A program made the position numbers and the translations under genes. 64,000 bases of DNA from Actinomycetota bacterium (GTDB lineage: Bacteria; Actinomycetota; Acidimicrobiia; Acidimicrobiales; SZUA-35), in contig JBCCFL010000019.1 in assembly GCA_039029735.1 (NCBI GenBank), forward strand, positions 12,924-76,923, in the 5' to 3' direction. Positions 15,122-57,091 of this stretch are shown one piece after another (positions within the stretch are counted from its first letter, which is position 1; every line of letters starts with the position of its first letter). The notes below the pieces were generated by a model that did no database searches, was not told the origin of the DNA, and saw only the letters and a program-made list of their open reading frames with translations.

Positions 15122-17610
15122 CAGCGATCCACCCGGTCGATGGTCGAGGTGCCGCCGGCTGATCGCACCTCGAATCGCACCGGCATGCGCTCGGCCAGGT
15201 CGCGCACATGGGTGACCACGGTGACGAGTCGGCCTGCCGCCGACAGCTCCTCGATGGCCGAGGCCAACACGTCGAGCGTTTCGGGGTCGAGCGTTCCGAA
15301 TCCCTCGTCGAGGAAGATCGACTCCAGACGAGGGCCGTCGGTGGTGGCCAGCTCAGCGATCGACTCCGCCAACGCCAGCGCCAACGACAACGAGGCGAGG
15401 AAGATCTCGCCGCCCGACAGCGTGCGCACGTCTCGCCGTTCATCGGCGTTGCCGTGGTCGCGCACGGCGAACGAACCGTCGACCACCTCGAGCGAGTAGC
15501 GGCCGTTCGACAGCTCGTGAAGGCGCAACGTGGCGTGATGCACGAGATGGTCGAGCGCCTCCTGCAGCAGCCACCGCTCGAACCCGTTGGCTGCAAGGTG
15601 CCGGCCGAGCGACTCGTGCACCGTCTGCTCCTCGTCGAGCTCGGCGGCCTGACGCTCCAACTCGGTGCGGCGGCCGATGCCAGCATCGAGGGCCGCCATC
15701 TCGGCGTCGAGCCGGGCCCGAGCCGCCGCGGCCAAGGGAGCCAGGCGAGCCACGTCGTCGCTGTCAGCGGTGTCGAGATCGACGTCGGTGTCGAGGCCGG
15801 CGGCCGAGGCCTGAGCCCAGAGATCGGTGGCCAGTTTCGACCGGGCGGCCCGCAGTTCGACGCCGGCCGCCTCGATCTCGGCCAGCTGCTCCCCCAGAGC
15901 GGTCCGTCGGTCGGTCGCCCAGACCGTGAGGCGGGCCCAGGCGTTGGCCAGGGGCTGGTCGGGATCCCAGGCGGGCGCGCCGAGGGCGGTGACACGGTCG
16001 CGCTGGGCCACGAACTGGGGCCGGAGATCGGCCTCGCGGCCACTGATCGCATCGACGGCCGCTCTGGCCCTGCCGGCCGCGGTGTCGGCGCGGTCGACGG
16101 CGGCTGCGGCGGCGGACGATGCGACGGCGGCGGCCTCGGCCCGCTGGAGGTCGCCGGTCACCCGGTCGAGGGTGCTGGCGCCGGCCGCAAGTTCATCCGC
16201 CGTGAGCTGACCGGCAAGGCGCTCGTCGATCTCGGTGAGTTCAGCCCGGTGGCGGACAGCGGCGGCGGCGGCCGCATCAGTGCGCCCGTGCGCCCGAGCC
16301 GCAGCCACCGTGGCATCGTCGAGCGCCACGGCCACCGTGGCCACCAACTCGTCAGCGGTGGCGAGCGCGTCGGGCGAGGCCGTGGCTGGTACCTCGTGCA
16401 CCGTTTGTTCGCACACCGGGCACGCCTCACCGGCTCGTAGCTGATGCACCCACACGGCGGCGTCGGCCGCCTGACGGTGAGCGGCCAGCGCCGCCCGGGC
16501 GACCTCCATCTCCCCGGTGAGCCGGACCTGCTCGGCCTGCGCCGTGGTGGCGTCGGCCTCGGCCGTGCCGCGCTCGGCATCCACGTCGCGAATCTGGCTT
16601 ACGAGCGCCTCCCGCCGCACCAGCAGATCAGCGGTTCGGGCGAGCGTGGCCGCGTCGCCGGCTGCGTCGGCGGCCACCCGACACTCCTGCAGCTCGGTTC
16701 GAGCGGCGGCCAGGTCGGCCTCCGCGGCCACGGCGGCCAGGCGTGCCTGCTCCAGTTCGGTGTGGACGGCCGCCGCATGATCGGGCACGGCAACCGCGGC
16801 GAGGTCGGCGATGGCCGCTTCGGTGGTGCGGTATGTGGCGCGCCGGTCGCTCAGCTCCACATCGTGGCGCTCGATCTCGGCGAGCTGATCGCCGAGCGAG
16901 CCGGCGAACCCGTCGACCCGCTCCCCCTGCTCCGCCAGGGCGAGGCGAGCCGCGGGAGTGGCGGCCGCCAGGCGTTCGAGCTCGGCCCGCTGCGCGTCCA
17001 TCGCGTAGCCCGCACGAGTGGCCCGCTCTCGGGCCTGAGCCGCCATGTCGGCATAGAGGCCGAGATCGAGCAGGCGCCTCAGCAGGCGTTGGCGATTGGC
17101 CGGGTCGTCGGTGAGGAACTCGGCGAAGGCCCCCTGGGGGAGCACGATCGTGCGGGTGAACTGGGAGAAGTCGAGGCCGATCAAGGCTTGGACCTCGGCG
17201 TCCATCTCGCGCACCGATCCGGCGAGCACGGTGGTGGGGCCATCAGGGTCTGGCCCGTGCCAGCGCTCCAACCGAGCTTCCCGGGTCTTCGCTCGGGGTG
17301 GCGACCCTGGCGAGGCGTTCGACTCCGCTCGCCGCACCACCCGCACGGCGCTGTAGCGGGCACCAGCCAGCTCGAAATCGAAGCGCACCCGGGCCTCGAC
17401 CGCCAGCTGGCTGATCACTGGCGCCACCAGTGACGGATTGTCGTAGCGAGCCACGGAGCCGTAGAGGGCGAAGGTGATGGCGTCGATCACCGTGGACTTG
17501 CCCGATCCCGTTGGGCCCACGAGGGCGACGAGATCGAGGCCTGCGAAGTCGATCTCGGTGCGATCCCGGAAGGCACCGAACCCTTCGAGGTCGACTCGGA
17601 GCGGCCTCAC
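15121..17610 (-). CDS. sbcC: SbcC/Rad50-family DNA repair ATPase (829 aa)
   Basis: Walker A LVGPTGSGKST near the N-terminus. Long Ala/Glu/Arg-rich coiled coils with a central CxxC zinc hook (AGEACPVCEQ). C-terminal signature and Walker B: LSGGEIFLASLSLALALAE...IFLDEGFGTLD. The start overlaps the sbcD stop by 4 nt. Confidence 0.9.
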   Translation of the reverse strand: MRPLRVDLEGFGAFRDRTEIDFAGLDLVALVGPTGSGKSTVIDAITFALYGSVARYDNPSLVAPVISQLAVEARVRFDFELAGARYSAVRVVRRAESNASPGSPPRAKTREARLERWHGPDPDGPTTVLAGSVREMDAEVQALIGLDFSQFTRTIVLPQGAFAEFLTDDPANRQRLLRRLLDLGLYADMAAQARERATRAGYAMDAQRAELERLAAATPAARLALAEQGERVDGFAGSLGDQLAEIERHDVELSDRRATYRTTEAAIADLAAVAVPDHAAAVHTELEQARLAAVAAEADLAAARTELQECRVAADAAGDAATLARTADLLVRREALVSQIRDVDAERGTAEADATTAQAEQVRLTGEMEVARAALAAHRQAADAAVWVHQLRAGEACPVCEQTVHEVPATASPDALATADELVATVAVALDDATVAAARAHGRTDAAAAAAVRHRAELTEIDERLAGQLTADELAAGASTLDRVTGDLQRAEAAAVASSAAAAAVDRADTAAGRARAAVDAISGREADLRPQFVAQRDRVTALGAPAWDPDQPLANAWARLTVWATDRRTALGEQLAEIEAAGVELRAARSKLATDLWAQASAAGLDTDVDLDTADSDDVARLAPLAAAARARLDAEMAALDAGIGRRTELERQAAELDEEQTVHESLGRHLAANGFERWLLQEALDHLVHHATLRLHELSNGRYSLEVVDGSFAVRDHGNADERRDVRTLSGGEIFLASLSLALALAESIAELATTDGPRLESIFLDEGFGTLDPETLDVLASAIEELSAAGRLVTVVTHVRDLAERMPVRFEVRSAGGTSTIDRVDR

Positions 17611-18917
17611 AGGCCCATGCTCAGTTGCTCGGCGTCGGCGCTCTCGGCCGCCGACGAGGGGTCGGTGCGCTCGGGCTCGGCTGGTTCCGCCCCGTCGGCC
17701 ACCTCAGGGGTGACGTGCTCGTCGTGGAGCGCAGTGAACGCCGCCACCAGGCGGGGGTCGTTCACCTCTCGCTCGGTGAGGTACTCGGCGAAGAGCTCGG
17801 TGGGGCTCAGCCCATCGCGGCGGGCTCGCACCTGGGCGCGCTGGTCGCCCAACACCCGAGACTCGATCCGTACATCGACCACGGCAGGCCCGATGGCCGC
17901 TCGCACCTCGTCGGCGAGGCCGGCTCGGGCTTGCTCGGTGAGGCGCACCCGAATCCATGGCACGCCGGCATCGCCTCCATTGGCCACCGCCTCCTCGCCC
18001 GCTCCTCCCGAGCCGGAGCCGGGGAAGGCTCCGAGCTCACGAGCCTGCGCTCGCACGTCGTCGAGGGTGCCGACCAAGGTGACGAGCGATCGACCGGACC
18101 GCAGAGGCACCGCTGTCACCTTGGCCGGCAGACCGGGTTCGCAGGTTGCGAGGTTGATCTGCTTGATCTGGGCTTCTTCACCGAAGTCGAGCGCCAACGG
18201 AGAGCCGCAGTAGTGCACGGCCATTGGCGCCGGAAGCTGCTGAGGGCGGTGAAGATGGCCCAGGGCAACGTAGTTCGCCGTGGTGGGGAGATCGGGAATG
18301 GTCACGCCGTACTCGTCGGCCAGGTGGGCCGACCGCTCTCCCCCGCCGGCCTTGGCGCCGGTGACGAACAGGTGGGCGGCGAGCAGATTCACCGAGTCGC
18401 CGTCGAACCCGGTGGCCAGCGCTGCCATCACAGCCCTAATCCGCTCGGCGTAGGTCTGCACGTTCCGGAAGGCGGCCGAGTCCATGAGGTCGGCGGCTCG
18501 GATGATCGCCCGCTGGGACTGGAACGGCAACAGGGCCACGTTCACCGGCACGCCGCCGGCACTGAGCCGCAGCACCCCACCGTCATCGGGGCGCCGCAGG
18601 GCGGCCGCCATCGTGATGCGGCCGAGCTGCAGCGGCCGAGCCACAGCATCGAGGCGCCGCGGGTTGTCGTGATTGCCGGCGACAACCACCACCGGGGCGA
18701 CCTCCGCCAGATCGAGCAGGGCGTCGTAGACGAGCGCCTCACTCTCGGCGGTCGGCGCCGCAGTGTCGAACAGGTCGCCGACCACGAGCGACAGATCGAC
18801 CTCTTCGGCCCGGGCGACCGACACGATCTCGGCGAGCACGGCGCGATGCTCGCCAGCACGACTGTGGCCGCGGATCGCCTTCCCGACGTGCCAGTCAGAG
18901 GTGTGGAGCAGCTTCAT
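17607..18917 (-). CDS. sbcD: SbcD/Mre11-family nuclease
   Basis: MKLLHTSDWHVGK..., VVGDLFD and VVVAGNHDNP are calcineurin-like phosphoesterase motifs. I prefer ATG 18917; the ORF-track start 18926 is a GTG three codons upstream. Confidence 0.9.
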   Translation of the reverse strand: MKLLHTSDWHVGKAIRGHSRAGEHRAVLAEIVSVARAEEVDLSLVVGDLFDTAAPTAESEALVYDALLDLAEVAPVVVVAGNHDNPRRLDAVARPLQLGRITMAAALRRPDDGGVLRLSAGGVPVNVALLPFQSQRAIIRAADLMDSAAFRNVQTYAERIRAVMAALATGFDGDSVNLLAAHLFVTGAKAGGGERSAHLADEYGVTIPDLPTTANYVALGHLHRPQQLPAPMAVHYCGSPLALDFGEEAQIKQINLATCEPGLPAKVTAVPLRSGRSLVTLVGTLDDVRAQARELGAFPGSGSGGAGEEAVANGGDAGVPWIRVRLTEQARAGLADEVRAAIGPAVVDVRIESRVLGDQRAQVRARRDGLSPTELFAEYLTEREVNDPRLVAAFTALHDEHVTPEVADGAEPAEPERTDPSSAAESADAEQLSMGL

Positions 18918-18950
18918 GGCCGCCACCGCACTGCGACGAGGCCGACCATG

Positions 18951-27257: not shown

Positions 27258-27481
27258 TCACCGGTTCTCGACGGTCGCCACCCCTGCAGTTCGAACCACC
27301 GTCTGATCCTGCCGAAGGCTGTATCCCTCGAAGGTGACGACATCGACGACGAGCCCCGGCTGGTAGTAGATCGAGCCGGATCATGGCAGCACGCCACCAC
27401 CGTCCGGAGGATCGCGTCGAAGTCCTCGCCGAAGCGCACCGAATGGGCCGATCCGAGGACATGGAGTTGTGCCGAACTCAA
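27258..27481 (-). pseudogene. Possible frameshifted small ORF downstream of the 81-aa ORF
   Basis: ORF 27194..27481(-) starts at TTG, overlapping the upstream stop. After ...AILRTVVACCH its frame becomes Ser/Arg-rich and runs 55 nt into mtr. A different frame from about 27380 encodes SIYYQPGLVVDVVTFEGYSLRQDQTVVRTAGVATVENR. That frame has GC-rich third positions and stops at 27258, clear of mtr. Confidence 0.25.
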
Positions 27482-27723
27482 ACTGAGTGCTCGTCCCTCA
27501 CTGGCGAGTTGTCGGCAACGAACGCTGCGATGAGATCAGAGTCGCCTTCGGCGAGAGCACACAGATCGGGGTGCGGTTCTCGTCCGAGCGCGCGCAATCC
27601 ACGTGCGGCGCGCACCGCGTCGGCCACGGCGATCACGGCGAGCGACTTGGCGTCGAGCCCGAGATCCTCGAGACGTACCGGACCGCTCCTGTCGATCGGC
27701 TCGCCGGTACGTTTCAGGACCAT
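27478..27723 (-). CDS. Hypothetical 81-aa protein immediately downstream of the FDH operon
   Basis: ATG 27723 lies 43 nt after the stop of the Fe-S subunit gene on the same strand. Third codon positions are GC-rich. Sequence is MVLKRTGEPIDRSGPVRLEDLGLDAKSLAVIAVADAVRAARGLRALG.... No family recognised. Confidence 0.45.
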   Translation of the reverse strand: MVLKRTGEPIDRSGPVRLEDLGLDAKSLAVIAVADAVRAARGLRALGREPHPDLCALAEGDSDLIAAFVADNSPVRDEHSV

Positions 27724-27766
27724 TCACGCAACGTAGCGCACCGGTGTGACAGGGGGCGGCGCTGGC

Positions 27767-28660
27767 TCAGGAGCCGTGGACGTAGCCCCAGCCGAAGCGG
27801 CCCTTGATGCACAGATGCCCCGACGTCACCGAGTGATCCGCCGGTGAGGTCACCTTGACGATCTGCTCGTCCTGCACGTGCAGTTCGAGGTTGCACCCCA
27901 CACCGCAGTACGAGCACACCGTCTGGGTCACGGTCTGCTCCTCGGGCCGCCACTTGGCCGCCTCCCGCAAGTCGAACTCGGTCTTGAACTGCAGCGCGTT
28001 GGTGGGGCAGACCGCCACGCAGTTGCCGCAGTAGACGCAGGCCGAGTCGGGCAGTTCGGCGTCGAACTCGGTTCGGATCCTCGCGTCGAAACCTCGGCCC
28101 GCCACGGCGATCGCGTAGGTGTGCTGTGCATCGTCGCCGCACGCCTCCACGCACTTGTAGCAGAGCACGCACTTGTCGTAGTCACGAATGTAGAGGTCGT
28201 CCTCGATCCGGACCGGCTCGTCCATGCGGGCCCGGTCCACGCCGTAGCGATCGGGGTCGGCGCCGTAGGCCTCGATCCAGGTGTTGATGTCGTCGGCCTG
28301 GCTCAGGTCGACGCCGGTGGCGAGGAACTCCAGCACCATCTTGCGACTGTGGCGCACGCGCTCGGAGTCGGTCTGGATCTCCATGCCAGCCTCGGCGGGC
28401 CGGGAGCACGCGGGTACCAACGTGCGCGAGCCCTCCATCTCCACCACGCACACCCGGCAGGCGTTCACCGGTGTGAGGTTCTCGGCATAGCAGATCGTTG
28501 GCGTGTCGACGCCGGCCGCCGTACACGCATCGAGCACCGATGCGCCGGCGGGCACCTCGACGGCCTGGCCATCGATCGTGAGCGACACCGGGGTCTCCAC
28601 CGCATCACCGCCACCGGCCGGGGCCGAGCCGTTCGTGTTGGGGGTCATCGACGTGGTCAT
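27767..28660 (-). CDS. Formate dehydrogenase Fe-S module: a NuoG/FdsA N-terminal-like [2Fe-2S] and 2x[4Fe-4S] region, plus the Mo-bisPGD-type [4Fe-4S] motif, encoded as a separate polypeptide
   Basis: ORF 27767..28855(-) was trimmed to ATG 28660 (GGGAGGG SD; ATGA overlap with the upstream stop). Motifs: SLTIDGQAVEVP...ICY...NACRVCVVE (2Fe-2S), CVLCYKCVEAC and CVYCGNCVAVCP (4Fe-4S). It ends ...TVCSYCGVGCNLELHV...HLCIKGRFGWGYVHGS*, which is exactly where canonical FdsA/FdhF continues with RLT.PL.R. Confidence 0.8.
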   Translation of the reverse strand: MTTSMTPNTNGSAPAGGGDAVETPVSLTIDGQAVEVPAGASVLDACTAAGVDTPTICYAENLTPVNACRVCVVEMEGSRTLVPACSRPAEAGMEIQTDSERVRHSRKMVLEFLATGVDLSQADDINTWIEAYGADPDRYGVDRARMDEPVRIEDDLYIRDYDKCVLCYKCVEACGDDAQHTYAIAVAGRGFDARIRTEFDAELPDSACVYCGNCVAVCPTNALQFKTEFDLREAAKWRPEEQTVTQTVCSYCGVGCNLELHVQDEQIVKVTSPADHSVTSGHLCIKGRFGWGYVHGS

Positions 28661-30402
28661 GATTGCCCTCCCACGAGGCCAAGATCGATCGCCGACCGCA
28701 CGGCGGTGGCCGCAGTGTGTCCGAGCCCGCAGATCGACGCATCCTTCATGGCCTGATCCATCTCGGCCAGCAGCGCCACTGGGGTTGCGCCCGGCGCCGC
28801 GAGCAACTCGTGCTGGCGGATCGTGCCCACCCGACACGGCACGCATTGGCCGCACGACTCGTCGCGGAAGAACTCGGCGATCCTGGTGACGACGGGCTCC
28901 ATGTCGATCGTGTGGTCGAAGGCCATCACCACCCCCGAGCCGAGCGACACCCCGGCAGCCCGGGTGTCTTCGAACGTGAGTGGCAGATCGAGGGAGCTGG
29001 CGTCCACGAACGAACCGGCCGCCCCACCCAGCAGCACGGCCTGCAGGTCGCCAGCCACACCACCGGCGAGGTCGAGCAGCTCACGGAGCGTCATGCCGAA
29101 CGGCACCTCGTACAACCCGGGGCTGGCCACCCGGCCCGACACGCAGAACAGCTTCGTGCCAGTCGAGCCGTCGGTGCCCACCGAGGCGTAGGCCTCTCCC
29201 CCGTCGGTCACGATGTCGAGCACGTTCAGCAACGTCTCGGGGTTGTTGACCACGGTGGGGGCGTCGAACAGGCCGTTCGTGGTGGGGAACGGCGGCTTCT
29301 GCCGTGGCTCGCCCCTGAACCCTTCGAGGGAGTTGAACAGCGCCGTCTCCTCCCCACAGATGTAGGCGCCGGCACCACGGCGGATCTCGATATCGAACGA
29401 GAACGACGACCGGGCAATCCGCTCTCCCAGGAAGCCAGCCTCGCGAGCCTGGTCGATGGCACCCTGCAACCGGGCGGTCGCCAACGGATACTCGCCCCGG
29501 ATGTAGATCCAGCCCTTGGTCGCCCCGACGGCGAAGCCGGCGATCGTGGCGGCCTCGATCACGGCGAACGGATCGTTCTCCATCACGATGCGGTCTTTGA
29601 ACGTGCCGGGCTCCGACTCATCGGCGTTGACCACCACGTGTTTCGGGCCTGCCTCGTCGGCAACGGCCCGCCACTTGATCCCGGTAGGGAACGCGGCGCC
29701 GCCCCGGCCCATCAGCCGGGCCGCCTGCACCTCGGCAATCACCCCGTCGGCCCCGCTGGTGAACGCCTCGGCGAGGGCCTTGTAGCCGCCAGCACCGACG
29801 TAGCTCTGCAGGTCGGTGGGGTCGACCACACCAACGCGGCGAAGGAGCCGGAGGCGAGGGTCGGCCCGCTGGGGCACGAGCGGGGCCGGGGGCGTGTCGG
29901 CGGCGACATCGACCGGCACCCAGTCGGCCTTGGCTCGGCCCTGGACGAACTGGGCCACCGGCCGCTCGCACTGCCCGAGGCAGGGGCTCCGGTGGACGTG
30001 GCGGCCGGCCGCTTCGGCCTCGGCGATCACCTCGGCCGCACCGGCGATCTGGCAGGCCGCGTCGACACACACGTGCACCACGTCGTCGCTGTGGCCGGGG
30101 TCGTCCACCCGGAACAGGTCGTAGAAGGTGGCCACGCCGTAGGCCTCGGCCGGTGGCACGCCGAGCACCTCGGCGATGTGGTTGAGGCCACCCGGACTGA
30201 TCCATCCTGCCTCACGCTGCAGGGCGTGGAGGCACGGGAGCAGCAGGTGACGCCGCTCGTTGCGGCGGCTCACACCACCGAGCACGAGCCGCTCGTTGGC
30301 CACCACCACGGTGGGGCCGGCAGCCGAAGCCGCGACAACAGCGTCGATCGCCGCCGCCTCCGCCTCCGTCGCCTGGTCGGCGGAGATGTGCAGATCGGTC
30401 AC
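28657..30402 (-). CDS. NuoE-NuoF fusion-like diaphorase subunit (FdsG/FdsB-like; FMN, NAD, Fe-S)
   Basis: The N-terminal part is thioredoxin-like [2Fe-2S] (CVDAAC...SPCLGQCE). The NuoF-like part has GRGGAAFPTGIKW, NADESEPGTFKDR, and ESCGQCVPCR...CGLG. The GTG start overlaps the upstream stop (GTGA). Confidence 0.85.
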   Translation of the reverse strand: MTDLHISADQATEAEAAAIDAVVAASAAGPTVVVANERLVLGGVSRRNERRHLLLPCLHALQREAGWISPGGLNHIAEVLGVPPAEAYGVATFYDLFRVDDPGHSDDVVHVCVDAACQIAGAAEVIAEAEAAGRHVHRSPCLGQCERPVAQFVQGRAKADWVPVDVAADTPPAPLVPQRADPRLRLLRRVGVVDPTDLQSYVGAGGYKALAEAFTSGADGVIAEVQAARLMGRGGAAFPTGIKWRAVADEAGPKHVVVNADESEPGTFKDRIVMENDPFAVIEAATIAGFAVGATKGWIYIRGEYPLATARLQGAIDQAREAGFLGERIARSSFSFDIEIRRGAGAYICGEETALFNSLEGFRGEPRQKPPFPTTNGLFDAPTVVNNPETLLNVLDIVTDGGEAYASVGTDGSTGTKLFCVSGRVASPGLYEVPFGMTLRELLDLAGGVAGDLQAVLLGGAAGSFVDASSLDLPLTFEDTRAAGVSLGSGVVMAFDHTIDMEPVVTRIAEFFRDESCGQCVPCRVGTIRQHELLAAPGATPVALLAEMDQAMKDASICGLGHTAATAVRSAIDLGLVGGQS

Positions 30403-32402
30403 GTGACAGCTGCCCCTTCCAGCTCATCGGTGCTGGTGTGCTGCGCGGCTGGGTCGAGCTTCTCCACCCGGATGGCGGCCGCCTTGAACTCGGCCGTGCC
30501 GGACCGCTTGTCCCAGGCGTCGTTGGTCAACACGTTGGCATCCACCAGTTCGGGAAAGTGGAAGGTGGTGAAGGTCAAGCCCCGAGGCAGGTCGGGCTGG
30601 ATCCGTACCGCCATCTCCACCGAACCCCGCGGCGAGCTGACGAGCACCCGCTCTCCGTCACCGATGCCGAGCGCCTGGGCGTCGTCGGGATTGACGTCGA
30701 GCGCCTCGCCGTAACGAATGGGCGACGAGAGGGACCCCGACTGCACGCCCGTGTTGTAGGAGTCGAGCGATCGGCCCGTGGTGAGGCGCAGGGGGAAGTC
30801 TGGGGTGAGCGCCTCCTTCGGGCCCTCGTGCTCCACGACGCTGAACGGGGCGGGGTCACGGCCCTCACGATCGGCGGCCCAGAGCCAGCCGTGGAGGAAT
30901 GGGCTGCCGGGATGATCCTCGGACGGGCAGGGCCACTGGAGCCCACCCTCGGACTCCAGCCGATCCCAGGTCATCCCCTGATGCAGCGGCGAGAGCGAGC
31001 GCAGCTCGTCCCACAGCTCGTGCGGGGTCGGAGTGCCCCAGCCGGCGCCCATGCGGTTGGCGAGGTCGGCCAGGATGTCGATGTCGTGGCGGGCCTCGCC
31101 CGGCGGCGGCACGGCGGCCCGTACCCGCTGCACCCGGCGCTCGCTGGAGGTCACGGTGCCGTCGGACTCCGCCCACGCCACCGAGGCGGGAAGCACCACG
31201 TCGGCCAGTTCGGCGGTGCGGGTCAGGAAGATGTCCTGCACAACGAGGAGGTCGAGGCCCTCCAGCAGATCGCGGGCGTGGGCCACGTCGGCCTCGGAGT
31301 CGGCCGGGTTCTCACCGATGCAGTAGACGGCCCGCAGCTCGCCGGCCTTCATTGCCTCGAACATGAGTGTGAGGTGGAGCCCGGGCTCGGGGTTGAGCTC
31401 CACCCCCCAGGCGGCCTCGAACTTGGCCCGGGCGGCGGGATCGACCACGTCCTGGAAGCCGGGGAACTTGTTGGGCAGCGCGCCCATGTCGCCCCCGCCC
31501 TGCACGTTGTTCTGCCCCCGCAGGGGGACGAGCCCCGAACCCCAGCGGCCGACGTGGCCGGTGAGCAACGCGAGGTTGCACAGCGACAACACGTTGTCGA
31601 CGGCGTTGTGGTGCTCGGTGATGCCCAGCGTCCAGAGGATCTGCGCCTTGTCGGCGGTGGCGTAGGCCTCGGCCAACTCGGCGATGGCGGCCGCCGGCAC
31701 GCCGGTGATCTCCTCAGCCACCTCGAGCGTGTAGGGCTCGACAGCATCGACGTAGGCGTCGAAGCCCTGGGTGGCGTGGGCGATGAACTCTGCGTTGTGC
31801 CAGCCGTTGGCGATGATGTGGCGACCAACGGCGTTGGCGAGGGCGATGTCGGTGCCCACGTTCAGGCCGAGCCAGGCGTCGGCGAACTTCGCCGACGAGG
31901 TGCGGCGCGGGTCGACGGCGAACATCTGAGCGCCGTTGTCCAACCCCTTCATGAGGTGATGGAAGAAGATCGGGTGGGCCTCTCGGGCGTTGGAGCCCCA
32001 GAGCACGATCACATCAGTTTCGTGGATCTCCTGGTAGGAGCAGGTGCCGCCGCCGGCACCGAACACTGTCGCCAGACCGACGACGGAGGGAGCGTGTCAA
32101 GTTCGGTTGCAGGAGTCGATGTTGTTCGACCCCAGCACGGTGCGAGCAAACTTCTGGGCGGCGAAGTTCATCTCGTTCGTCGCCTTCGAGCAGCTGAACA
32201 TGCCCACTGCCCGGGGGCCGTGCTCGTCGACGGTGGCTCGCAGGCCAGTGGCCACCCGGTCGAGGGCCTCGTCCCACGTGGCGGGCCTGAGCTCGCCGTT
32301 GTCGCGCACGAGGGGCTGGGTGAGGCGCGGACGCTGTCGAGCCAGCCGACCCCGGCGACGGCCCGAGCGGGAGGAGCCGTTGGTGTGGGTGGGAGCAGTC
32401 AT
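30399..32402 (-). CDS. Formate dehydrogenase catalytic (molybdopterin bis-PGD) subunit, read through an in-frame UGA (selenocysteine candidate); lacks the usual N-terminal Fe-S module
   Basis: ORFs 32097..32477(-) and 30399..32066(-) share a frame and are separated only by TGA 32099-32097. The joined sequence reads ...SNNIDSCNRT-U-HAPSVVGLATVFGAGGGTCSYQEIHETDVIVLWGSN.... I place the start at ATG 32402 (MTAPTHTNG...RLTQPLVRDNGELRPATWDEALDRV). Confidence 0.8.
32068..32084 (-). other. Candidate SECIS apical hairpin
   Basis: The mRNA reads UGA CAC GCU CCC UCC GUCGUC-GGUCU-GGCGAC. This gives a 6-bp stem (one G-U pair) and a GGUCU loop starting 13 nt after the UGA. It occupies the same V/A-G-L codon context as the GGUC loop of the E. 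coli fdhF SECIS. Confidence 0.5.
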
Positions 32403-32470
32403 GGGTGCCGAACCTCGTCTGGACGTGGGTAGTGATCTGGGGCCGCAGGATTGTCCCACGAAGCGGAACA

Positions 32471-32486
32471 GTTCCACTCTGCGGAT
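32471..32486 (-). promoter_or_regulatory. Weaker copy (12/16) of the C1-cluster 16-mer, 69 nt upstream of the FDH operon start
   Basis: The minus strand reads ATCCGCAGAGTGGAAC, against TTCTGCATCGTGGAAC at 56348 and 61113. It overlaps the palindrome GGAAC-A-GTTCC. Confidence 0.3.
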
Positions 32487-32595
32487 CCCCTAATGGTAGC
32501 CGCCCCCACGCAGCGGAGCCCGGCCGAACCAGGCCATACACCCGAGTCGCAAAACCGGGAGATGCGCACCATTGAGAGGGATAGCGTGAGTTGCG

Positions 32596-34302
32596 ATGCG
32601 ATGGTCCAAGTTGTTCATCCCCACCCTGCGTGATGCGCCGGGTGACGCCGAAGCGATCAGCCACGCCCTGTTGGTGAAGGGCGGGTTCATCCGCCAGCTC
32701 CACAGTGGCCACTACTCGCTTCTCCCGTTGGGGTGGCGCGTGCACCAGAAGGTGGAAGAGGTGGTCCGCCAGGAGATGGACGCCATCGGCGGCCAGGAGT
32801 TCCTCCTGCCGACGATGCACCCTGCCGGCATCTGGCAGCAGTCCGGCCGGTGGGACACGATGGGCGAGATCATGTTCCGCCTCACCGACCGGCGGCACAA
32901 CGACCTGGCGCTCGGCATCACCCACGAGGAGATCTTCGCCACCGTCGCCACGGAGCTCTCGTCCTACAAGGAACTCCCCCAGGTCTGGTATCAGGTCCAG
33001 ACGAAGTTCCGCGACGAGGCGCGGCCCAAGTCGGGCCTGCTGCGCGTTCGTGAGTTCGCGATGAAGGACTCCTACTCGTTCGACCTCGACTGGGACGGGC
33101 TCGACGAATCGTTCCAGGCCCACCACGACGCCTACGTGCGGATCTTCCAGCGCTTCGGCCTGAAGGCCATGCCGGTGCAGGCATCGAGCGGCGCGATGGG
33201 CGGCAACACCTCCACCGAGTTCATGGTCCCCTGCGACGCAGGGGAGGACGACGTGATCGTGTGCCCCAACTGTGGCTACGCCGCCAACATCGAGAAGGCC
33301 ACATCCACACTGCCCGCCGTCAACGACGAGCCCGGCCCCGACGCCCCCGAGCGGTTCGCAACGCCCGGCGTGCGCACGATCGCGGCGCTTGAGAGCTTCG
33401 AGGGTGGGGCGGCGGCCGACCGCCAGATCAAGACGATGGTGATGGTCACCGACGGCGAGGTCACGCTCGCCCTGCTCCGAGGCGATCACCAGCTCAACCT
33501 CCAGAAGCTCATCGACGCCACCGGCACCATCGAGCTGCGACCAGCCGAGGCGGCGGAGACGCTGTCGAACCTCGGGGCCAACCCCGGGTCGCTCGGGGCG
33601 GTGGGCGTCAAGGGCCTCCGCATCGTGGCCGACGAGGCGCTGCGAGGGCGGACGAACCTCACCACCGGCGCCAACGAGGACGACTGGCACTTCCGTGGCG
33701 TTGACATCGAACGCGACATCGACGTCGACCTCTGGGCCGACCTTCGCGAGGTGTCGGCCGGCGAGGCCTGCCCGCAGTGCGGCACGGCCGTGGGGATGGT
33801 GCGCTGCGTCGAGGCCGGCCACATCTTCAAGCTCGGAACCGGCTACGCCGAGAAGTTCAACGTCACGGTGAGCGACGCCGACGGCAAACCCCGACCTGTG
33901 GTGATGGGCAGCTACGGCATCGGCATCGGCCGCAACATGGCTGTGATCGCCGAGAGCCACAACGACGACCGCGGCATCATCTGGCCCGTCGCTGTTGCGC
34001 CGTACGAGGTTGTGATCACCCCCCTCAAGCTCGACGCCGACACGATGGCAGCCGCCGAAGGCGTGTACGACGCCCTGCGCGCCCGGGGCGTCGACGTGCT
34101 CCTCGACGATCGCGACGCCCGAGCCGGCGTGAAGTTCGCCGACGCCGAACTGATCGGTGTGCCCTACCGAATCACACTCGGCCCGAAGGGCCTCGCCAAC
34201 CGCGAGGTGGAGTTCACTCCGCGGGCCACCGGCGACACCGAGATGGTGTCACTCGACGGTGTCGCGGGGCGCGTGGCCGACGAGGTGGTCGCCGCCCGCT
34301 GA
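32596..34302 (+). CDS. proS: Proline--tRNA ligase
   Basis: MRWSKLFIPTLRDAPGDAEAISHALLVKGGFIRQL..., FRDEARPKSGLLRVREFAMKDSYSF, and a class II aaRS plus anticodon-binding C-terminus. Confidence 0.95.
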   Translation: MRWSKLFIPTLRDAPGDAEAISHALLVKGGFIRQLHSGHYSLLPLGWRVHQKVEEVVRQEMDAIGGQEFLLPTMHPAGIWQQSGRWDTMGEIMFRLTDRRHNDLALGITHEEIFATVATELSSYKELPQVWYQVQTKFRDEARPKSGLLRVREFAMKDSYSFDLDWDGLDESFQAHHDAYVRIFQRFGLKAMPVQASSGAMGGNTSTEFMVPCDAGEDDVIVCPNCGYAANIEKATSTLPAVNDEPGPDAPERFATPGVRTIAALESFEGGAAADRQIKTMVMVTDGEVTLALLRGDHQLNLQKLIDATGTIELRPAEAAETLSNLGANPGSLGAVGVKGLRIVADEALRGRTNLTTGANEDDWHFRGVDIERDIDVDLWADLREVSAGEACPQCGTAVGMVRCVEAGHIFKLGTGYAEKFNVTVSDADGKPRPVVMGSYGIGIGRNMAVIAESHNDDRGIIWPVAVAPYEVVITPLKLDADTMAAAEGVYDALRARGVDVLLDDRDARAGVKFADAELIGVPYRITLGPKGLANREVEFTPRATGDTEMVSLDGVAGRVADEVVAAR

Positions 34303-44128: not shown

Positions 44129-44143
44129 ATCGATGATTCATCG
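44129..44143. promoter_or_regulatory. Perfect palindrome TCGATGA-T-TCATCGA 22 nt upstream of the Lrp/AsnC gene
   Basis: Seen in ...ctactgtaTCGATGATTCATCGAcaacagtgaaagaacaacgcATG. Its right half (GATTCATCGACAACAGT) also resembles the C1-cluster motif GATTCTGCATCGTGGAAC when gapped. Confidence 0.35.
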
Positions 44144-44164
44144 ACAACAGTGAAAGAACAACGC

Positions 44165-44659
44165 ATGATCGACGGCATCGATCGGGAGATACTGACGATC
44201 CTACGCAACGACGCCTCCACTACGAAGGCGGAGATCGCCCGCCGTGTCGGGCTGGTGGCATCCGCGGTGTCGGAACGGGTGCGTCGCCTGGAGGCCGATG
44301 GAGTGATCGCGGGATACGAGGCCCGGCTCGACCCGCATCTGCTCGGCAAGCCACTCTTGGCCTTCGTGTTCGTCACCGACGCCAAACCCAACCACGGCTT
44401 CGACGTGGCCGCTGCCCTCACTGGCGTCACCGGCCTGGAAGAGCTCCACAAGATCGCCGGCGACGACTGTTACTTGTTGAAGATCCGGGCCGCCGACACC
44501 GACGAGCTGAACTCGATCATCGAGCGCGAGATCAACGTGGTCGAGGCCGTGACCCGGGTGCGTACCACGATCGTGTTGCGCCCCGTGACCGAGCGTCCAC
44601 CGCTCGCTGGCCACGATCTCCAGCAACCCGAGGCCGTCGGCCGGGCAGCCACCCCATGA
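44165..44659 (+). CDS. Lrp/AsnC family transcriptional regulator
   Basis: ORF 43517..44659 was trimmed to ATG 44165 (MIDGIDREILTILRNDASTTKAEIARRVGLVASAVSERVRRLEADGVI). The stop is ATGA-coupled to the next gene. Confidence 0.85.
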   Translation: MIDGIDREILTILRNDASTTKAEIARRVGLVASAVSERVRRLEADGVIAGYEARLDPHLLGKPLLAFVFVTDAKPNHGFDVAAALTGVTGLEELHKIAGDDCYLLKIRAADTDELNSIIEREINVVEAVTRVRTTIVLRPVTERPPLAGHDLQQPEAVGRAATP

Positions 44660-46161
44660 CTCGACGGAGGAGCCGCACCCGGCCCGCCCCGCCGCCGCGT
44701 CCGCTCGTCACCCCTCCCCCACTCGGCGGTTCGTATCGCCCCTTGTCGGCCGCCGACGCCGACCGGATCGTCGACCACGCCTTCGACATGCTCGGCGCCG
44801 TCGGCATGGCCGGCGCTCCCGTGCGCCATGCCGACCTGTTGCTCGCGGCCGGCGCCTCCCGGCGCGACGACGGGCGGCTCCTGTTCCCGCGCCCGATGGT
44901 GGAGGCGGCGTTGCGTCGATCACCGTCGGCGGTGCAGCTCCCCGGGTTCATCGAGGATCGAGGCGTGACCATTGGCGGCGGCCGCGTGCACATCGGCACC
45001 GGCGGGGCCGCCGTGCAGGTGCTGGACGCCGCCACGGGAACCTATCGCGACTCCAAGCTGCGTGACCTCTGGACGATGATGCGGGTGCTCGACGAGATGG
45101 CGAACATCCACTACGGGCTTCGGCCTCTCGTGGCCCGCGACGTGGTGGATCCGCTCGAACTCGATCTCAACACGGCCTTCGCCGTCACGGCGGCAACGGC
45201 TAAGCCCACCGGGGTGAGCTTCACCTCGGCCGCCACCGTCGACCCGGTGGTTGACCTGTTCGACGCCGCCCTCGGCGGTGAAGGGCGCTTCGCCCGCCAA
45301 CCGTTCTCGATGGCCGTGGTGGTGCACGTGGTGCCGCCGCTGCGCTTCTCGCCGGAGGGCTGCGAAATCATGGAGCGGGCGATCGAGCGCGGCATGATCG
45401 TGCAGACGTGCTCGGCCGGGCAGGCCGGCGCCACCTCTCCCCCGTCACTCGCTGGCAGCCTGGCTCAGGGCCTGGCCGAGATCCTGGCGGGCGTGGTGTT
45501 GGCCGACGCAATCAAGCCCGGCCATCCCTGCATCCACGCCTTCATGCCCTTCGTGTCCGACCTGCGCACCGGCGCCATGACCGGCGGTAGCGGCGAGGCC
45601 GCCGTGACCAGCGCCGCTGCGGCCCAGCTGCTGCGGCAGCTGGAGATTCCCCACGCCGTATCGGCCGGAATCACCGAGGCGAAGGAGGCCGACAACCAGG
45701 CCGGATACGAGAAGGGCTACACCGTGGCCCTGGCAGCCCAAGCAGGAGCGGAGATGGTGCAGCTGTCGGTGGGCATGCTCGGCTCGATCATGGTGGCGAG
45801 CCCCGAGACTCTCGTGATCGACAGTGACATGTGTGGCGCCATCCTCCGCTCCGTTCGGGGCGTGGAGGTGGACATCGGGTACCTCGACATGGCGATCATC
45901 GAAGAGGTGGTGGGCGGCGACGGTCACTACCTGGGCTCGGCCCAAACGCTGGAGCTGATGCGCAGCGAGTACGTGTATCCCGACCTGGGCGACCGGCAGT
46001 CGGTCGACGAGTGGGTGTCGGCCGGCAGCCCGGCCCTGTGGGCCCGGGCTTCGGCCCAGGTTGCCGACATCGTTGCCGGAGGACGGGCTGGCCATCTCTC
46101 CGTCGATGCCGAGGCGGCGATCCGCTCCCGCTTCCCGATTCGTCTGGAGGCCACACCATGA
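44656..46161 (+). CDS. MttB-superfamily methyltransferase homolog (non-pyrrolysine; glycine betaine/quaternary amine type)
   Basis: 501 aa with no in-frame TAG. Contains YRPLSAADADRIVDHAFDMLGAVGM..., GGGRVHIGTGGAAVQVLD, QTCSAGQAGATSP, and VIDSDMCGAILRSVRG. Confidence 0.75.
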   Translation: MTRRRSRTRPAPPPRPLVTPPPLGGSYRPLSAADADRIVDHAFDMLGAVGMAGAPVRHADLLLAAGASRRDDGRLLFPRPMVEAALRRSPSAVQLPGFIEDRGVTIGGGRVHIGTGGAAVQVLDAATGTYRDSKLRDLWTMMRVLDEMANIHYGLRPLVARDVVDPLELDLNTAFAVTAATAKPTGVSFTSAATVDPVVDLFDAALGGEGRFARQPFSMAVVVHVVPPLRFSPEGCEIMERAIERGMIVQTCSAGQAGATSPPSLAGSLAQGLAEILAGVVLADAIKPGHPCIHAFMPFVSDLRTGAMTGGSGEAAVTSAAAAQLLRQLEIPHAVSAGITEAKEADNQAGYEKGYTVALAAQAGAEMVQLSVGMLGSIMVASPETLVIDSDMCGAILRSVRGVEVDIGYLDMAIIEEVVGGDGHYLGSAQTLELMRSEYVYPDLGDRQSVDEWVSAGSPALWARASAQVADIVAGGRAGHLSVDAEAAIRSRFPIRLEATP

Positions 46162-48626: not shown

Positions 48627-48668
48627 GGCCGGGCGCGCCCATCGAGGAGTTGTCGAGCCCTCGACGCG

Positions 48669-49106
48669 TCACCCTTTTCGATACCAGGTCGTTTCTTCGG
48701 TGACGATGTTCTCGCCGTAGTGGCAGCGACGGGTCACCGCGCAGTAGGGGCCCACGCCAAAGACATCAACCAGATCGCATTGGGAACTGCTCTTGGGCTG
48801 GTTGTCAGACACCATCTTCAGGGTGAGAAGGGCGACCAGTGACGAAATCCCGGTGTCGGTCGGCGCCTCCGATGAGGCGTCGAGATCTACGTGCCCGAGC
48901 GCAGCCGACTCCAGCACCTTTGCGGCGAGTTCGTATCCGACCTCGTGCCCTCCAGCAATCAGATCCCGTGCGAGCTGGAGCTGTTCGTCCGGGCTCATCC
49001 GAGTCCGCTCCCCGATACTTTCTCCCCATGGGGTCGAAACACCCGTCTTGCTCTGATTCACTAAAGTCACTTGCGGCTCTCCTTTCGACTTGGAGAGTTG
49101 TACCAC
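48669..49106 (-). CDS. Hypothetical protein (145 aa; possibly 109 aa from an internal ATG)
   Basis: Located in the lower-GC island. Sequence includes MSPDEQLQLARDLIAGGHEVGYELAAKVLESAALG...CAVTRRCHYGENIVTEETTWYRKG. No family recognised. Confidence 0.45.
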   Translation of the reverse strand: MVQLSKSKGEPQVTLVNQSKTGVSTPWGESIGERTRMSPDEQLQLARDLIAGGHEVGYELAAKVLESAALGHVDLDASSEAPTDTGISSLVALLTLKMVSDNQPKSSSQCDLVDVFGVGPYCAVTRRCHYGENIVTEETTWYRKG

Positions 49107-49161
49107 ACAAGCTCTATTGACGTATATGTAGAACGATTCACATCATCAAAACTGACGCTCC

Positions 49162-51129: not shown

Positions 51130-51133
51130 CCGC

Positions 51134-51747: not shown

Positions 51748-51780
51748 GCTAGAAGAACGGAGGGGCGCCGTCCGGTCGCG

Positions 51781-57060: not shown

Positions 57061-57091
57061 CCCTCGCCGTTGAGCCCACTAGGTTGGCCCC

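What the first reader, a model, noticed from the sequence alone, without database searches (positions are those of the whole stretch)
27767..32402. Permuted, split FdsA: the Fe-S N-terminal module, including the Mo-proximal [4Fe-4S] motif, is encoded after the diaphorase gene, downstream of the catalytic module
In canonical NAD-dependent FDH (FdsA) and FdhF, one polypeptide carries the N-terminal Fe-S domains, then the CxxCxxxC...C cluster, then RLT.PL.R and the Mo-bisPGD domains.

Here the operon order (minus strand) is:

1. A catalytic module that starts just before RLTQPLVRDNG and has no Cys-cluster motif (30399..32402).
2. A NuoE-NuoF fusion (28657..30402).
3. A 297-aa protein carrying the 2Fe-2S and 4Fe-4S motifs. 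It ends ...CSYCGVGCNLE...CIKGRFGWGYVHGS* (27767..28660), exactly at the point where the catalytic module begins.

All junctions are GTGA/ATGA overlaps. The FS0 cluster would therefore have to be supplied in trans from the C-terminus of another subunit. This amounts to a fission plus a circular permutation of gene order.
Basis: partly seen in the sequence, partly recalled or inferred. Interest (0 to 1): 0.7.

Follow-up and report, generated by a model that had tools for sequence, protein, structure and literature searches.

The report
Split, gene-permuted selenocysteine formate dehydrogenase
This three-gene operon encodes an NAD-linked formate dehydrogenase whose first iron-sulfur cluster sits on a different protein from the molybdenum site it serves, a layout that is conserved across several bacterial phyla, unnamed in databases and, as far as I could find, undescribed.

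Summary
On the minus strand lie three genes: a catalytic Mo/W-bisPGD subunit (30399..32402), a NuoE-NuoF fusion (28657..30402), and a 297-aa Fe-S protein (27767..28660). The Fe-S protein ends with the Molybdop_Fe4S4 (FS0) domain. The junctions are GTGA and ATGA overlaps.

The two pieces are exact complements. They match positions 1-49 and 48-672 of the Fdh-alpha model, and residues 22-303 and about 304-933 of Rhodobacter FdsA.

This is neither an artefact nor decay. Every related locus with enough upstream DNA (67 complete, plus partial ones) has the same order, including closed chromosomes from Acidimicrobiia, Eremiobacterota, Acidobacteriota and others. All 16 cluster cysteines and the FS0 lysine are invariant. 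Fused relatives (about 40% identity) keep the canonical E-F-[FeS-cat] order.

- The catalytic gene carries an in-frame UGA at the active site (32097..32099), TGA in 67/67 loci, followed by a conserved SECIS-like hairpin.
- The off-pathway His-ligated cluster (A4 of RcFDH) is absent.

Gene callers cut the catalytic subunit at the UGA, which hides the architecture. I found no published description.

Verdict: a new structural variant of a known enzyme class. Trans delivery of FS0 is inferred, not shown.

The parts
30399..32402 (-). Catalytic subunit of a formate dehydrogenase (667 aa including Sec). It has the Mo/W-bisPGD domains only and no FS0 domain. It starts 25 residues before the conserved RLTxPLVR motif.
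   Evidence: PF00384 (residues 26-450) + PF01568 (538-642). TIGR01591 positions 48-672 at 658.3 bits, just under the 666.25 cut-off because the first 47 positions are missing. It aligns to FdhF/FdsA structures only from their residue about 56-64 or about 304 onward. U102, H103 and R295 (RGQNNVQG) are invariant in 67 relatives.
32097..32099 (-). In-frame TGA at the active-site position, read as selenocysteine (SCNRT-U-HAPSV).
   Evidence: Seen in the translation and sequence. It is TGA in 67 of 67 related loci and never a Cys codon.
32068..32084 (-). SECIS-like hairpin with a 6-bp stem (GUCGUC/GGCGAC) and a GGUCU loop. It starts 12 nt after the UGA.
   Evidence: Third codon positions are invariant or compensated only inside this hairpin and vary freely around it. 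99.6% of cells are paired, with one compensatory CG->GC pair and UG/UA/CG alternation. A possible lower helix enclosing the UGA is only 83% paired and is inconclusive. No Rfam family matches.
28657..30402 (-). NuoE-NuoF fusion (581 aa), the diaphorase. It carries a [2Fe-2S] thioredoxin-like domain, an FMN/NADH site and a [4Fe-4S] cluster.
   Evidence: Pfam PF01257, PF01512, PF10531, PF10589. It aligns over residues 46-572 to the beta subunit of Methylorubrum extorquens FDH1 (7e5z_B, 44-556). The motifs VCVDAAC...PCLGQC, GRGGAAFPTG, GAGAYICGEETAL and ESCGQCVPC...ICGLG can be read in the translation. It has no extra C-terminal ferredoxin domains.
27767..28660 (-). Fe-S subunit (297 aa). It has a NuoG/HoxU-like [2Fe-2S] cluster plus two [4Fe-4S] clusters, and ends with the FS0 [4Fe-4S] domain of the molybdoenzyme.
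   Evidence: Pfam. It aligns to R. capsulatus FdsA 6tg9_A residues 22-303. 16 Cys are invariant in 83 sequences (C57/68/71/85, C164/167/170/174, C208/211/214/218, C249/252/256/284). The HxxxCxxCxxxxxC motif is present in 0/83 and PF10588 is not detected.
27776..27934 (-). FS0 (Molybdop_Fe4S4) domain at the C-terminus of the Fe-S subunit: CSYCGVGC...C-I-K-GRFGW.
   Evidence: PF04879 at residues 243-295, E 8.7e-21. TIGR01591 positions 1-49 at 55.4 bits. C249, C252, C256, C284 and K286 are invariant. In all relatives the ORF stops 0-40 aa after GRFGWxYV.
32403..32595 (.). Intergenic region between the operon and the divergently transcribed proS gene. It is the presumed promoter region.
   Evidence: proS (tRNA-synt_2b, tRNA_edit, HGTP_anticodon) starts at 32596 on the + strand. 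No sigma-70-like site or intrinsic terminator was detected in 27300..32700. A GAGG lies about 11 nt upstream of the ATG at 32402.

Best explanation
The operon encodes a soluble, three-subunit, NAD+-linked, selenocysteine-containing Mo/W formate dehydrogenase of the FdsABG/MeFDH1 kind. The ancestral alpha subunit has been cut in the short linker just after its FS0 [4Fe-4S] domain.

The Mo/W-bisPGD part is made first as its own protein. The NuoE-NuoF diaphorase follows. The NuoG-like Fe-S module, still carrying FS0 and the conserved Lys at its C-terminus, is made last.

In the assembled enzyme the C-terminal FS0 domain of the Fe-S subunit would dock onto the catalytic subunit where its own N-terminal domain would normally be. 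Electrons from formate oxidation at Sec-Mo/W would then cross a subunit interface to FS0. From there they would pass through two [4Fe-4S] clusters and the [2Fe-2S] cluster of the same subunit, then the [4Fe-4S] cluster of the NuoF part, to FMN and NAD+.

- Shown: the gene structure, domain complementarity, conservation of ligands, Sec codon and hairpin, and conservation of gene order across phyla.
- Inferred: trans docking, substrate, direction, and the origin. The origin could be a tandem duplication of an E-F-[FeS-cat] operon with loss of the outer parts, or a translocation of the catalytic part.

The likely physiological role is oxidation of formate released from the tetrahydrofolate C1 pool.
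For: - Complementary halves: TIGR01591 positions 1-49 on the Fe-S protein and 48-672 on the catalytic protein. The scores are 55.4 + 658.3 bits against a cut-off of 666.25, so only the two together reach it.
- FdsA residues 22-303 versus about 304-933. Every solved stand-alone FdhF-type enzyme has about 55-60 N-terminal residues with no counterpart in this catalytic protein.
- The order cat->EF->FeS is found in all loci with enough sequence. That covers 67 with the full catalytic gene, includes closed chromosomes, and spans Acidimicrobiia, Eremiobacterota, Acidobacteriota, Chloroflexota, Spirochaetia and Nitriliruptoraceae. More distant members at 51% and 41% identity have it too.
- All on-pathway cluster ligands and K286 are invariant. 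U102/H103/R295 are invariant.
- The only missing cluster is the His-ligated A4, which in RcFDH lies outside the bis-MGD-to-FMN path at the dimer interface (PMC7171172).
- The diaphorase aligns full-length to the MeFDH1 beta subunit.
- Fused relatives keep the order E, F, A.
- The genes are translationally coupled.
- FdhD neighbours the operon in 11 loci and FolD+FTHFS in 6 loci. In this window FTHFS, MttB-like, two DMGDH/SARDH-like genes and ETF lie within 30 kb.
Against: - No structural or biochemical evidence shows that FS0 docks in trans.
- No selA/selB/selD genes or tRNA-Sec are present in the window or the fetched loci, so Sec decoding capacity is inferred from the codon and hairpin only.
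- No FdhD or FdsD is in the window.
- TIGR01591 is narrowly missed by the catalytic protein alone.
- The substrate and the metal (Mo or W) are not testable here.
Confidence: 0.8

Rival explanations
1. The arrangement is an assembly or binning artefact, or a decaying pseudogene cluster.
For: The window comes from a MAG. Gene callers report the catalytic gene as two fragments.
Against: The architecture is identical in 67/67 loci, including complete chromosomes (for example NZ_OZ253573.1, OY759762.1) and 1-5 Mb long-read contigs. 159 columns are invariant in the catalytic protein and all cluster ligands are invariant. The 'break' in the catalytic gene is always a TGA at the Sec position, followed by a conserved hairpin.
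Confidence: 0.01
2. The enzyme is an electron-bifurcating (Bfu/HydABC-type) formate dehydrogenase that also uses ferredoxin, not a simple NAD-linked enzyme.
For: The NuoF part scores highest against HydB/NfnB/Bfu-type subunits in the PDB. One fused relative (L084) has a 637-aa NuoF homologue with extra ferredoxin domains. Fdh-Bfu enzymes with the pterin on a separate subunit are known (PMC9304861).
Against: The NuoE-NuoF fusion here has no additional C-terminal or N-terminal ferredoxin-type domains. It aligns end to end with the non-bifurcating MeFDH1 beta subunit. No ferredoxin-binding module is present in the operon.
Confidence: 0.07
3. The Fe-S protein and the diaphorase form an independent module. 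[quoted passage not shown]
For: Complex I NuoG keeps an FS0-equivalent cluster with no catalytic role (own knowledge). Some DMSO-reductase-family enzymes lack FS0 (own knowledge). The catalytic protein alone falls just below the TIGR01591 cut-off and also matches NasC/NasA models more weakly.
Against: The three genes are always adjacent and usually overlapping. The FS0 cysteines and the Lys two residues after the fourth Cys are invariant. The Sec-His and Arg active-site residues typical of FDH are invariant. The break falls exactly at the domain boundary, so the two proteins sum to a complete Fdh-alpha. FdhD and formate-THF ligase are recurrent neighbours.
Confidence: 0.05

Closest known systems
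Methylorubrum extorquens AM1 tungsten FDH1 (MeFDH1, alpha-beta; PDB 7e5z/7vw6)
   Same: It is soluble and NAD-linked. The beta subunit is a NuoE-NuoF fusion that aligns with the window protein over its full length. The alpha subunit contains the same Fe-S module and Mo/W-bisPGD domains.
   Different: In MeFDH1 the Fe-S module, FS0 and the pterin domains form one 989-995-aa polypeptide. Here they are two proteins, encoded at opposite ends of the operon. The active-site ligand here is Sec, whereas the NAD-dependent FDHs listed in the 2026 review are Cys enzymes. The His-ligated cluster is absent here.
Rhodobacter capsulatus / Cupriavidus necator FdsGBACD (RcFDH, PDB 6tg9/6tga)
   Same: The cofactor chain is the same: bis-MGD -> A1(FS0) -> A2 -> A3 -> A5 -> B6 -> FMN (PMC7171172). 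The Fe-S protein aligns to FdsA 22-303 and the catalytic protein to about 304-933.
   Different: FdsA is a single chain. FdsG and FdsB are separate proteins. FdsD and FdsC are present. Cluster A4 (His117/Cys121/124/130) is present at a dimer interface. The active site is Cys-Mo. The gene order is G-B-A-C-D.
Fused Sec-containing relatives found here (L083, L084/L085; about 40% identity to the Fe-S protein)
   Same: They have the same module set, and L084 has a Sec codon at the same position. L084 also has FolD, FTHFS and FdhD next door.
   Different: They have the canonical order NuoE, NuoF, then [FeS-FS0-cat] in one gene. NuoE and NuoF are not fused. PF10588 (the His-ligated cluster) is present.
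Stand-alone FdhF-type enzymes (E. coli FdhH 1aa6; T. kivui HDCR FdhF 7qv7_S) and Fdh-Bfu types 2/3 with a separate pterin subunit
   Same: These are the best sequence matches to the catalytic protein (532 and 449 bits). The pterin subunit is separate from the NuoG-like subunit (PMC9304861).
   Different: These separate FdhF subunits keep their own N-terminal FS0 domain. The alignments start at their residue 59-61. Here FS0 has gone with the other subunit.
Formylmethanofuran dehydrogenase FwdB/FwdD
   Same: It is a precedent for a Mo/W-bisPGD catalytic unit split into two polypeptides. PMC7171172 notes that the FdsA C-terminus is replaced by an additional subunit in M. wolfeii.
   Different: That split removes the C-terminal pterin-binding domain, not the N-terminal FS0 cluster domain. 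No gene-order permutation around a diaphorase is involved.

Membership tests
Metal-dependent (Mo/W-bisPGD) formate dehydrogenase, catalytic subunit (TIGR01591 Fdh-alpha) | Molybdopterin oxidoreductase domain plus molybdopterin dinucleotide-binding domain | tested here: met
   PF00384 E 7.7e-74 and PF01568 E 1.6e-24.
Metal-dependent (Mo/W-bisPGD) formate dehydrogenase, catalytic subunit (TIGR01591 Fdh-alpha) | Active-site Sec/Cys followed by His, and the conserved Arg (RGQNNVQG) | tested here: met
   U102-H103 and R295 are present and invariant in 67 sequences.
Metal-dependent (Mo/W-bisPGD) formate dehydrogenase, catalytic subunit (TIGR01591 Fdh-alpha) | Whole-protein score above the curated equivalog cut-off (666.25 bits) | tested here: not met
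   658.3 bits for model positions 48-672. The missing positions 1-49 score 55.4 bits on the Fe-S protein.
Metal-dependent (Mo/W-bisPGD) formate dehydrogenase, catalytic subunit (TIGR01591 Fdh-alpha) | FS0 [4Fe-4S] domain (CxxCxxxC...C-x-K) at the N-terminus of the same polypeptide | tested here: not met
   There is no Cys motif in the catalytic protein or in its in-frame upstream extension (0/67). The domain is at the C-terminus of the 297-aa protein.
NAD-linked FDH of the FdsABG / MeFDH1 kind | NuoF-like FMN/NADH subunit with a [4Fe-4S] cluster and a NuoE-like [2Fe-2S] module | tested here: met
   PF01512, PF10589 and PF01257 occur in one 581-aa protein. It aligns full-length to the MeFDH1 beta subunit.
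NAD-linked FDH of the FdsABG / MeFDH1 kind | NuoG/HoxU-like Fe-S module covalently fused to the catalytic module in one alpha subunit | tested here: not met
   They are separate genes at opposite ends of the operon in all loci examined.
NAD-linked FDH of the FdsABG / MeFDH1 kind | His-ligated [4Fe-4S] cluster (A4; PF10588) | tested here: not met
   PF10588 is not detected. The motif is present in 0/83 sequences. A gap appears in the alignment to FdsA.
NAD-linked FDH of the FdsABG / MeFDH1 kind | Accessory FdsD / FdsC-FdhD genes in the operon | tested here: not met
   None is found in the window. FdhD-like genes are adjacent in 11 related loci.
NAD-linked FDH of the FdsABG / MeFDH1 kind | Formate:NAD+ oxidoreductase activity | not testable with these tools
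   This needs purified enzyme.
Bacterial selenoprotein (Sec-FDH) | In-frame UGA at the catalytic position | tested here: met
   TGA at 32097..32099, and TGA in 67/67 relatives.
Bacterial selenoprotein (Sec-FDH) | SECIS stem-loop immediately downstream of the UGA | tested here: met
   A 6-bp stem with a GGUCU loop lies 12 nt after the UGA. It is 99.6% paired, has compensatory change, and shows synonymous-site conservation confined to the hairpin. No Rfam model matches.
Bacterial selenoprotein (Sec-FDH) | selA, selB, selD and tRNA-Sec in the genome | not testable with these tools
   None is found in the 64-kb window or the fetched flanks. Whole genomes could not be scanned.
Electron-bifurcating Bfu (HydABC-type) Fdh | BfuB/HydB-type NuoF with extra ferredoxin-like cluster domains | tested here: not met
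   Only NuoE + NuoF core domains are present.

The most novel reading that the evidence does not exclude
The split is adaptive rather than a neutral rearrangement. Moving FS0 and its Lys to the C-terminus of the last-translated subunit would make electron coupling between the pterin site and the Fe-S chain depend on a late, reversible docking step. That step could act as an assembly checkpoint: the slowly made Sec/Moco subunit matures first and is wired up only afterwards. It could also be a way to disconnect or exchange an oxygen-damaged catalytic subunit in aerobic hosts. The cassette would then have spread between phyla as a unit. If so, this would be the first natural case of a DMSO-reductase-family enzyme whose proximal cluster belongs to the partner subunit, and it would offer a ready-made split site for modular FDH engineering.
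Probability: 0.15. Interest if true: 0.75.

Novelty: new variant of a known kind. Interest (0 to 1): 0.58.

Why it matters
In the Mo/W-bisPGD enzymes compared here, and as far as I know in the family generally, the proximal [4Fe-4S] cluster (FS0) and its electron-transfer Lys are part of the catalytic polypeptide. This widespread environmental clade shows that they can be supplied by a partner subunit.

- It gives enzymologists a natural test of how tightly FS0 must be integrated with the pterin domain.
- It gives engineers of CO2-reducing FDHs a naturally validated split point.
- It is a clear operon-level circular permutation whose origin can be studied.
- It adds a selenocysteine enzyme to the NAD-linked FDH class, whose characterised members in the 2026 review are Cys enzymes.

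There is also a practical annotation problem. Public catalogues cut the catalytic subunit at the UGA, name the Fe-S subunit only '2Fe-2S iron-sulfur cluster-binding protein', and name the diaphorase 'NAD(P)H-dependent oxidoreductase subunit E'. Formate oxidation capacity in Acidimicrobiia, Eremiobacterota and Acidobacteriota is therefore probably under-called in metabolic reconstructions.

Tried and rejected
- **Fe-S subunit alone.** AlphaFold2 with a 28-sequence alignment gave mean pLDDT 47.8, with the cluster regions below 50. The model is unusable, so no fold search was run.
- **Rfam.** Scans at gathering score and at E<=10 around the UGA gave no bacterial SECIS family, only chance snoRNA hits. 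Single-sequence folding of the region was not significant against shuffles (z -0.5). Support for the hairpin comes from the comparative analysis instead.
- **Lower helix.** A lower helix enclosing the UGA is 83% paired without covariation, so it was left as inconclusive.
- **Promoter/terminator scan.** It found nothing.
- **81-aa ORF.** The ORF downstream (27478..27723), considered as a possible FdsD, has no Pfam match and is not a recurrent neighbour. It was rejected as part of the system.
- **Tat signal.** The Arg-rich N-terminus of the catalytic subunit has no hydrophobic region before the conserved RLTxP, and in relatives the leader is as short as 4-6 residues. A Tat signal was rejected.
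- **Charge complementarity.** Any complementarity between the basic catalytic N-terminus (mean +2.3) and the Fe-S C-terminal tail (mean -0.45) is weak.
- **tRNA-Sec.** A search in the window and 52 loci found none.
- **Exact look-ups.** Look-ups of the window's catalytic fragments and of P0001's contig found nothing on record.
- **Literature.** Eight searches found no description.


Full report
**What is in the sequence**

Three tightly packed genes lie on the minus strand between 27767 and 32402.

- The first gene (30399..32402) encodes a 667-residue protein with only the Molybdopterin and Molydop_binding domains.
- The second (28657..30402) encodes a 581-aa fusion of a NuoE-like [2Fe-2S] domain with a NuoF-like FMN/NADH/[4Fe-4S] module.
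- The third (27767..28660) encodes a 297-aa protein with a [2Fe-2S] Fer2_4 domain and a two-cluster ferredoxin domain. Its last 55 residues form the Molybdop_Fe4S4 domain (PF04879, residues 243-295).

The stop and start codons overlap as GTGA and ATGA. The in-frame sequence upstream of the first gene has no cysteine motif. The gene is preceded by a 190-bp spacer and a divergent proS gene.

**Complementarity of the two halves**

The curated Fdh-alpha model TIGR01591 matches the catalytic protein at model positions 48-672 (658.3 bits). It matches the C-terminus of the Fe-S protein at positions 1-49 (55.4 bits). Neither piece alone reaches the 666.25-bit cut-off, but together they do.

Against solved structures, the Fe-S protein aligns to residues 22-303 of Rhodobacter capsulatus FdsA. 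The catalytic protein aligns from about 295/304 to 933.

All stand-alone FdhF-type structures (T. kivui HDCR FdhF, F420-dependent FDH, E. coli FdhH) align only from their residue 56-64 onward. Each of them has an FS0 domain that this catalytic protein lacks.

The cut is not at the boundary between the HoxU-like module and the FdhF-like module, which is about residue 250 of FdsA according to PMC7171172. It falls about 55 residues later, inside the FdhF-like unit and immediately after FS0.

1. The catalytic reading frame contains an in-frame TGA at 32097..32099, in the context SCNRT-TGA-HAPSV. This is the position of the Mo/W-ligating Sec or Cys.
2. Twelve nucleotides downstream lies a hairpin, GUCGUC-GGUCU-GGCGAC (32084..32068).
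   - Across 67 related sequences the third codon positions inside this hairpin are invariant, or change only in a compensated way (CG to GC in L041 and L078).
   - Third positions on either side vary freely.
   - 99.6% of cells are paired.
   - From memory, the spacing and the GGUC-type loop resemble the minimal E. coli fdhF SECIS. I did not verify that here.
3. The His-x3-Cys-x2-Cys-x5-Cys motif of the NuoG/FdsA module is absent. PF10588 is not detected, the motif occurs in 0 of 83 clade members, and the alignment to FdsA shows a gap there. In RcFDH this cluster (A4) lies outside the bis-MGD-to-FMN pathway, at the dimer interface (PMC7171172). Its loss need not break the electron path, but it may change the oligomeric state.

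**Is it real and conserved?**

A search of 5.8 billion proteins returned more than 120 clusters of 260-300-aa proteins at 75-87% identity, all ending with PF04879.

A scan of one genome per GTDB species returned 80 loci. In every locus with enough upstream DNA the order is catalytic gene, NuoE-NuoF fusion, Fe-S gene. The same holds on a 5.39-Mb contig and a 1.1-Mb contig, and for more distant members at 51% and 41% identity.

- 67 of 67 complete catalytic genes carry TGA at the active site.
- Every Fe-S ORF stops 0-40 residues after GRFGWxYV.
- None of the 67 has a CxxCxxxC motif in the upstream in-frame extension.

The carriers are mostly Acidimicrobiia, including Ilumatobacter, Microthrix-related organisms and sponge-associated genera. 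Others are Eremiobacterota/Vulcanimicrobiota, Acidobacteriota (Bryobacterales, Terriglobia), Anaerolineaceae, Spirochaetia and Nitriliruptoraceae. Several are closed chromosomes.

Sixteen cysteines are invariant: four for the [2Fe-2S] cluster and four for each of the three [4Fe-4S] clusters. Lys286, two residues after the fourth FS0 cysteine, is also invariant. In the catalytic protein 159 columns are invariant, including U102, H103 and R295. These data exclude an assembly artefact or a pseudogene.

**Relation to fused enzymes**

In a library of 50%-identity representatives the split family stands apart. Its members are at least about 50-60% identical to the query. The next relatives, at no more than 43% identity, are long fused proteins, or fragments of about 350-380 aa that are fused proteins truncated at a Sec codon.

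I examined two such relatives. Both have the canonical order NuoE, NuoF, then one gene for [Fe-S module-FS0-catalytic domains]. In L084 that gene is interrupted only by the Sec codon and is preceded by FolD, FTHFS and FdhD.

The module order E, F, FeS, cat in these relatives becomes cat, E-F, FeS here. That is a circular permutation at operon level, combined with one fission (FeS|cat) and one fusion (E-F).

A tandem duplication of an E-F-[FeS-cat] operon, followed by loss of the outer parts, would produce exactly this order. A translocation of the catalytic part would do so too. The data do not distinguish the two routes, and this step is inference.

**How it most likely works**

The NuoE-NuoF fusion aligns end to end with the beta subunit of M. 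extorquens FDH1. It lacks the extra ferredoxin domains of bifurcating HydB/BfuB subunits. The enzyme is therefore most likely a simple NAD-linked FDH.

By homology with RcFDH (PMC7171172), the proposed path has these steps:

1. Sec-Mo/W-bisPGD in the catalytic subunit.
2. FS0 in the Fe-S subunit (C249/252/256/284, with K286).
3. The two ferredoxin-type [4Fe-4S] clusters.
4. The [2Fe-2S] cluster (C57/68/71/85).
5. The NuoF [4Fe-4S] cluster.
6. FMN, then NAD+.

The NuoE [2Fe-2S] cluster would be off-path. The first step would cross a subunit interface. From memory of the FdhH structure, domain I is built from the N-terminal FS0 segment plus later segments of the chain. If so, the C-terminal 55 residues of the Fe-S subunit would complete a domain together with parts of the catalytic subunit, which implies an obligate tight complex. 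This is inferred. I could not model the complex, and the model of the Fe-S subunit alone was too poor to use.

**Physiological context**

Within 30 kb the window encodes:

- an MttB-family methyltransferase;
- two DAO+GCV_T proteins of the dimethylglycine/sarcosine dehydrogenase type;
- ETF alpha and beta;
- formate-tetrahydrofolate ligase.

In relatives, FolD and FTHFS directly precede the operon in six loci, and FdhD neighbours it in eleven. A plausible role is oxidation to CO2 of formate released from the tetrahydrofolate C1 pool, for example after demethylation of glycine betaine derivatives, with NADH gain. The direction and the substrate remain inference.

**Novelty**

Eight full-text searches found no description of an FDH whose FS0 domain is on a separate subunit, or of this gene order. 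Neither did targeted reading of:

- a June 2026 review of metal-dependent FDHs;
- the ForCE paper with its FDH phylogeny;
- the Bfu family survey.

The review lists the characterised NAD-dependent FDHs as Cys enzymes. The library is incomplete, so prior description elsewhere cannot be excluded.

Public annotation does not recognise the system:

- The Fe-S subunit is called '2Fe-2S iron-sulfur cluster-binding protein', 'YjgC' or 'HndD'.
- The diaphorase is called 'NAD(P)H-dependent oxidoreductase subunit E'.
- The best 120 database relatives of the catalytic subunit are all 533-575-aa fragments that begin after the UGA.

I rate this a new structural variant of a known enzyme kind. It would be moderately surprising to a molybdoenzyme specialist, and it is directly testable.

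Noticed in passing
window 44137..62877: A cluster of C1 and methylated-amine genes. It holds an MttB-family methyltransferase (about 44137..46161), two DAO+GCV_T proteins of the dimethylglycine/sarcosine dehydrogenase type (45828..48626 +, 53650..56256 -), ETF beta and alpha (52755..53657, 51781..52908), a xanthine-DH/CO-DH-family Mo enzyme with FAD and 2Fe-2S parts (57083..61044), and formate-THF ligase (61105..62877). It fits a route from methyl groups to formate that the FDH could complete.
   Followed up: partly
public protein catalogues: All 120 best database relatives of the catalytic subunit are 533-575-aa fragments starting after the Sec UGA. The about 98-aa N-terminal piece is called as a separate ORF (L001 4216-4512, L002 4205-4504). 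The three subunits carry uninformative names, so this FDH is probably missed in metabolic reconstructions.
   Followed up: partly
L037 about 1..2385 (Microthrixaceae): An FdhD-like ORF (…TMRTPGHDFELAVGFCFTDGLL…) lies directly upstream of the catalytic gene and in the same frame. FdhD-like genes also follow the Fe-S gene in 11 loci, mostly Eremiobacterota (for example L057 2487..3332). The family assignment rests on motif recognition and on Pfam PF02634 in L084 only.
   Followed up: partly
L034 and L053: Loci binned as Gammaproteobacteria and Verrucomicrobiales carry Fe-S subunits 73% and 65% identical to the Actinomycetota window. This is either horizontal transfer of the cassette or mis-binning. 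More generally, 60-66% identity between Acidimicrobiia, Eremiobacterota and Acidobacteriota suggests that the three-gene cassette moves between phyla.
   Followed up: no
window 32328..32402 and the catalytic N-termini of relatives: The leader of the catalytic subunit before RLTxP is short (4-25 aa) and basic (mean net charge +2.3 in 64 sequences). The tail of the Fe-S subunit after GRFGWxYV is short and on average slightly acidic (-0.45). This could be a weak electrostatic substitute for the lost linker. It is not a Tat signal.
   Followed up: partly
window 27478..27723 (-): An 81-aa ORF lies just downstream of the Fe-S gene. It has no Pfam match and is not a recurrent neighbour in relatives. 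It is probably not a gene, or not part of the system.
   Followed up: yes
window 1..5265 (-): A very large ORF of more than 1754 aa runs off the window start. It contains an FG-GAP repeat and is probably a surface or secreted protein.
   Followed up: no
window 15121..18950 (-): An SbcC/Rad50-like ATPase (AAA_23, SMC_N, SbcC_Walker_B) followed by a calcineurin-like phosphoesterase. This looks like an SbcCD-type nuclease pair.
   Followed up: no
L086 (contig_47090): A distant member (41% identity) has the same gene order and FTHFS/FolD upstream. Its catalytic and NuoF genes are broken into several short ORFs, which probably reflects long-read frameshift errors rather than decay.
   Followed up: no
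window 32101..32106 with 32054..32059 (-): In this window CCGAAC, just before the UGA, is perfectly complementary to GUUCGG, 3 nt after the hairpin. Together they would enclose the UGA in a longer stem. Across relatives this helix is only 83% paired and shows no covariation.
   Followed up: yes
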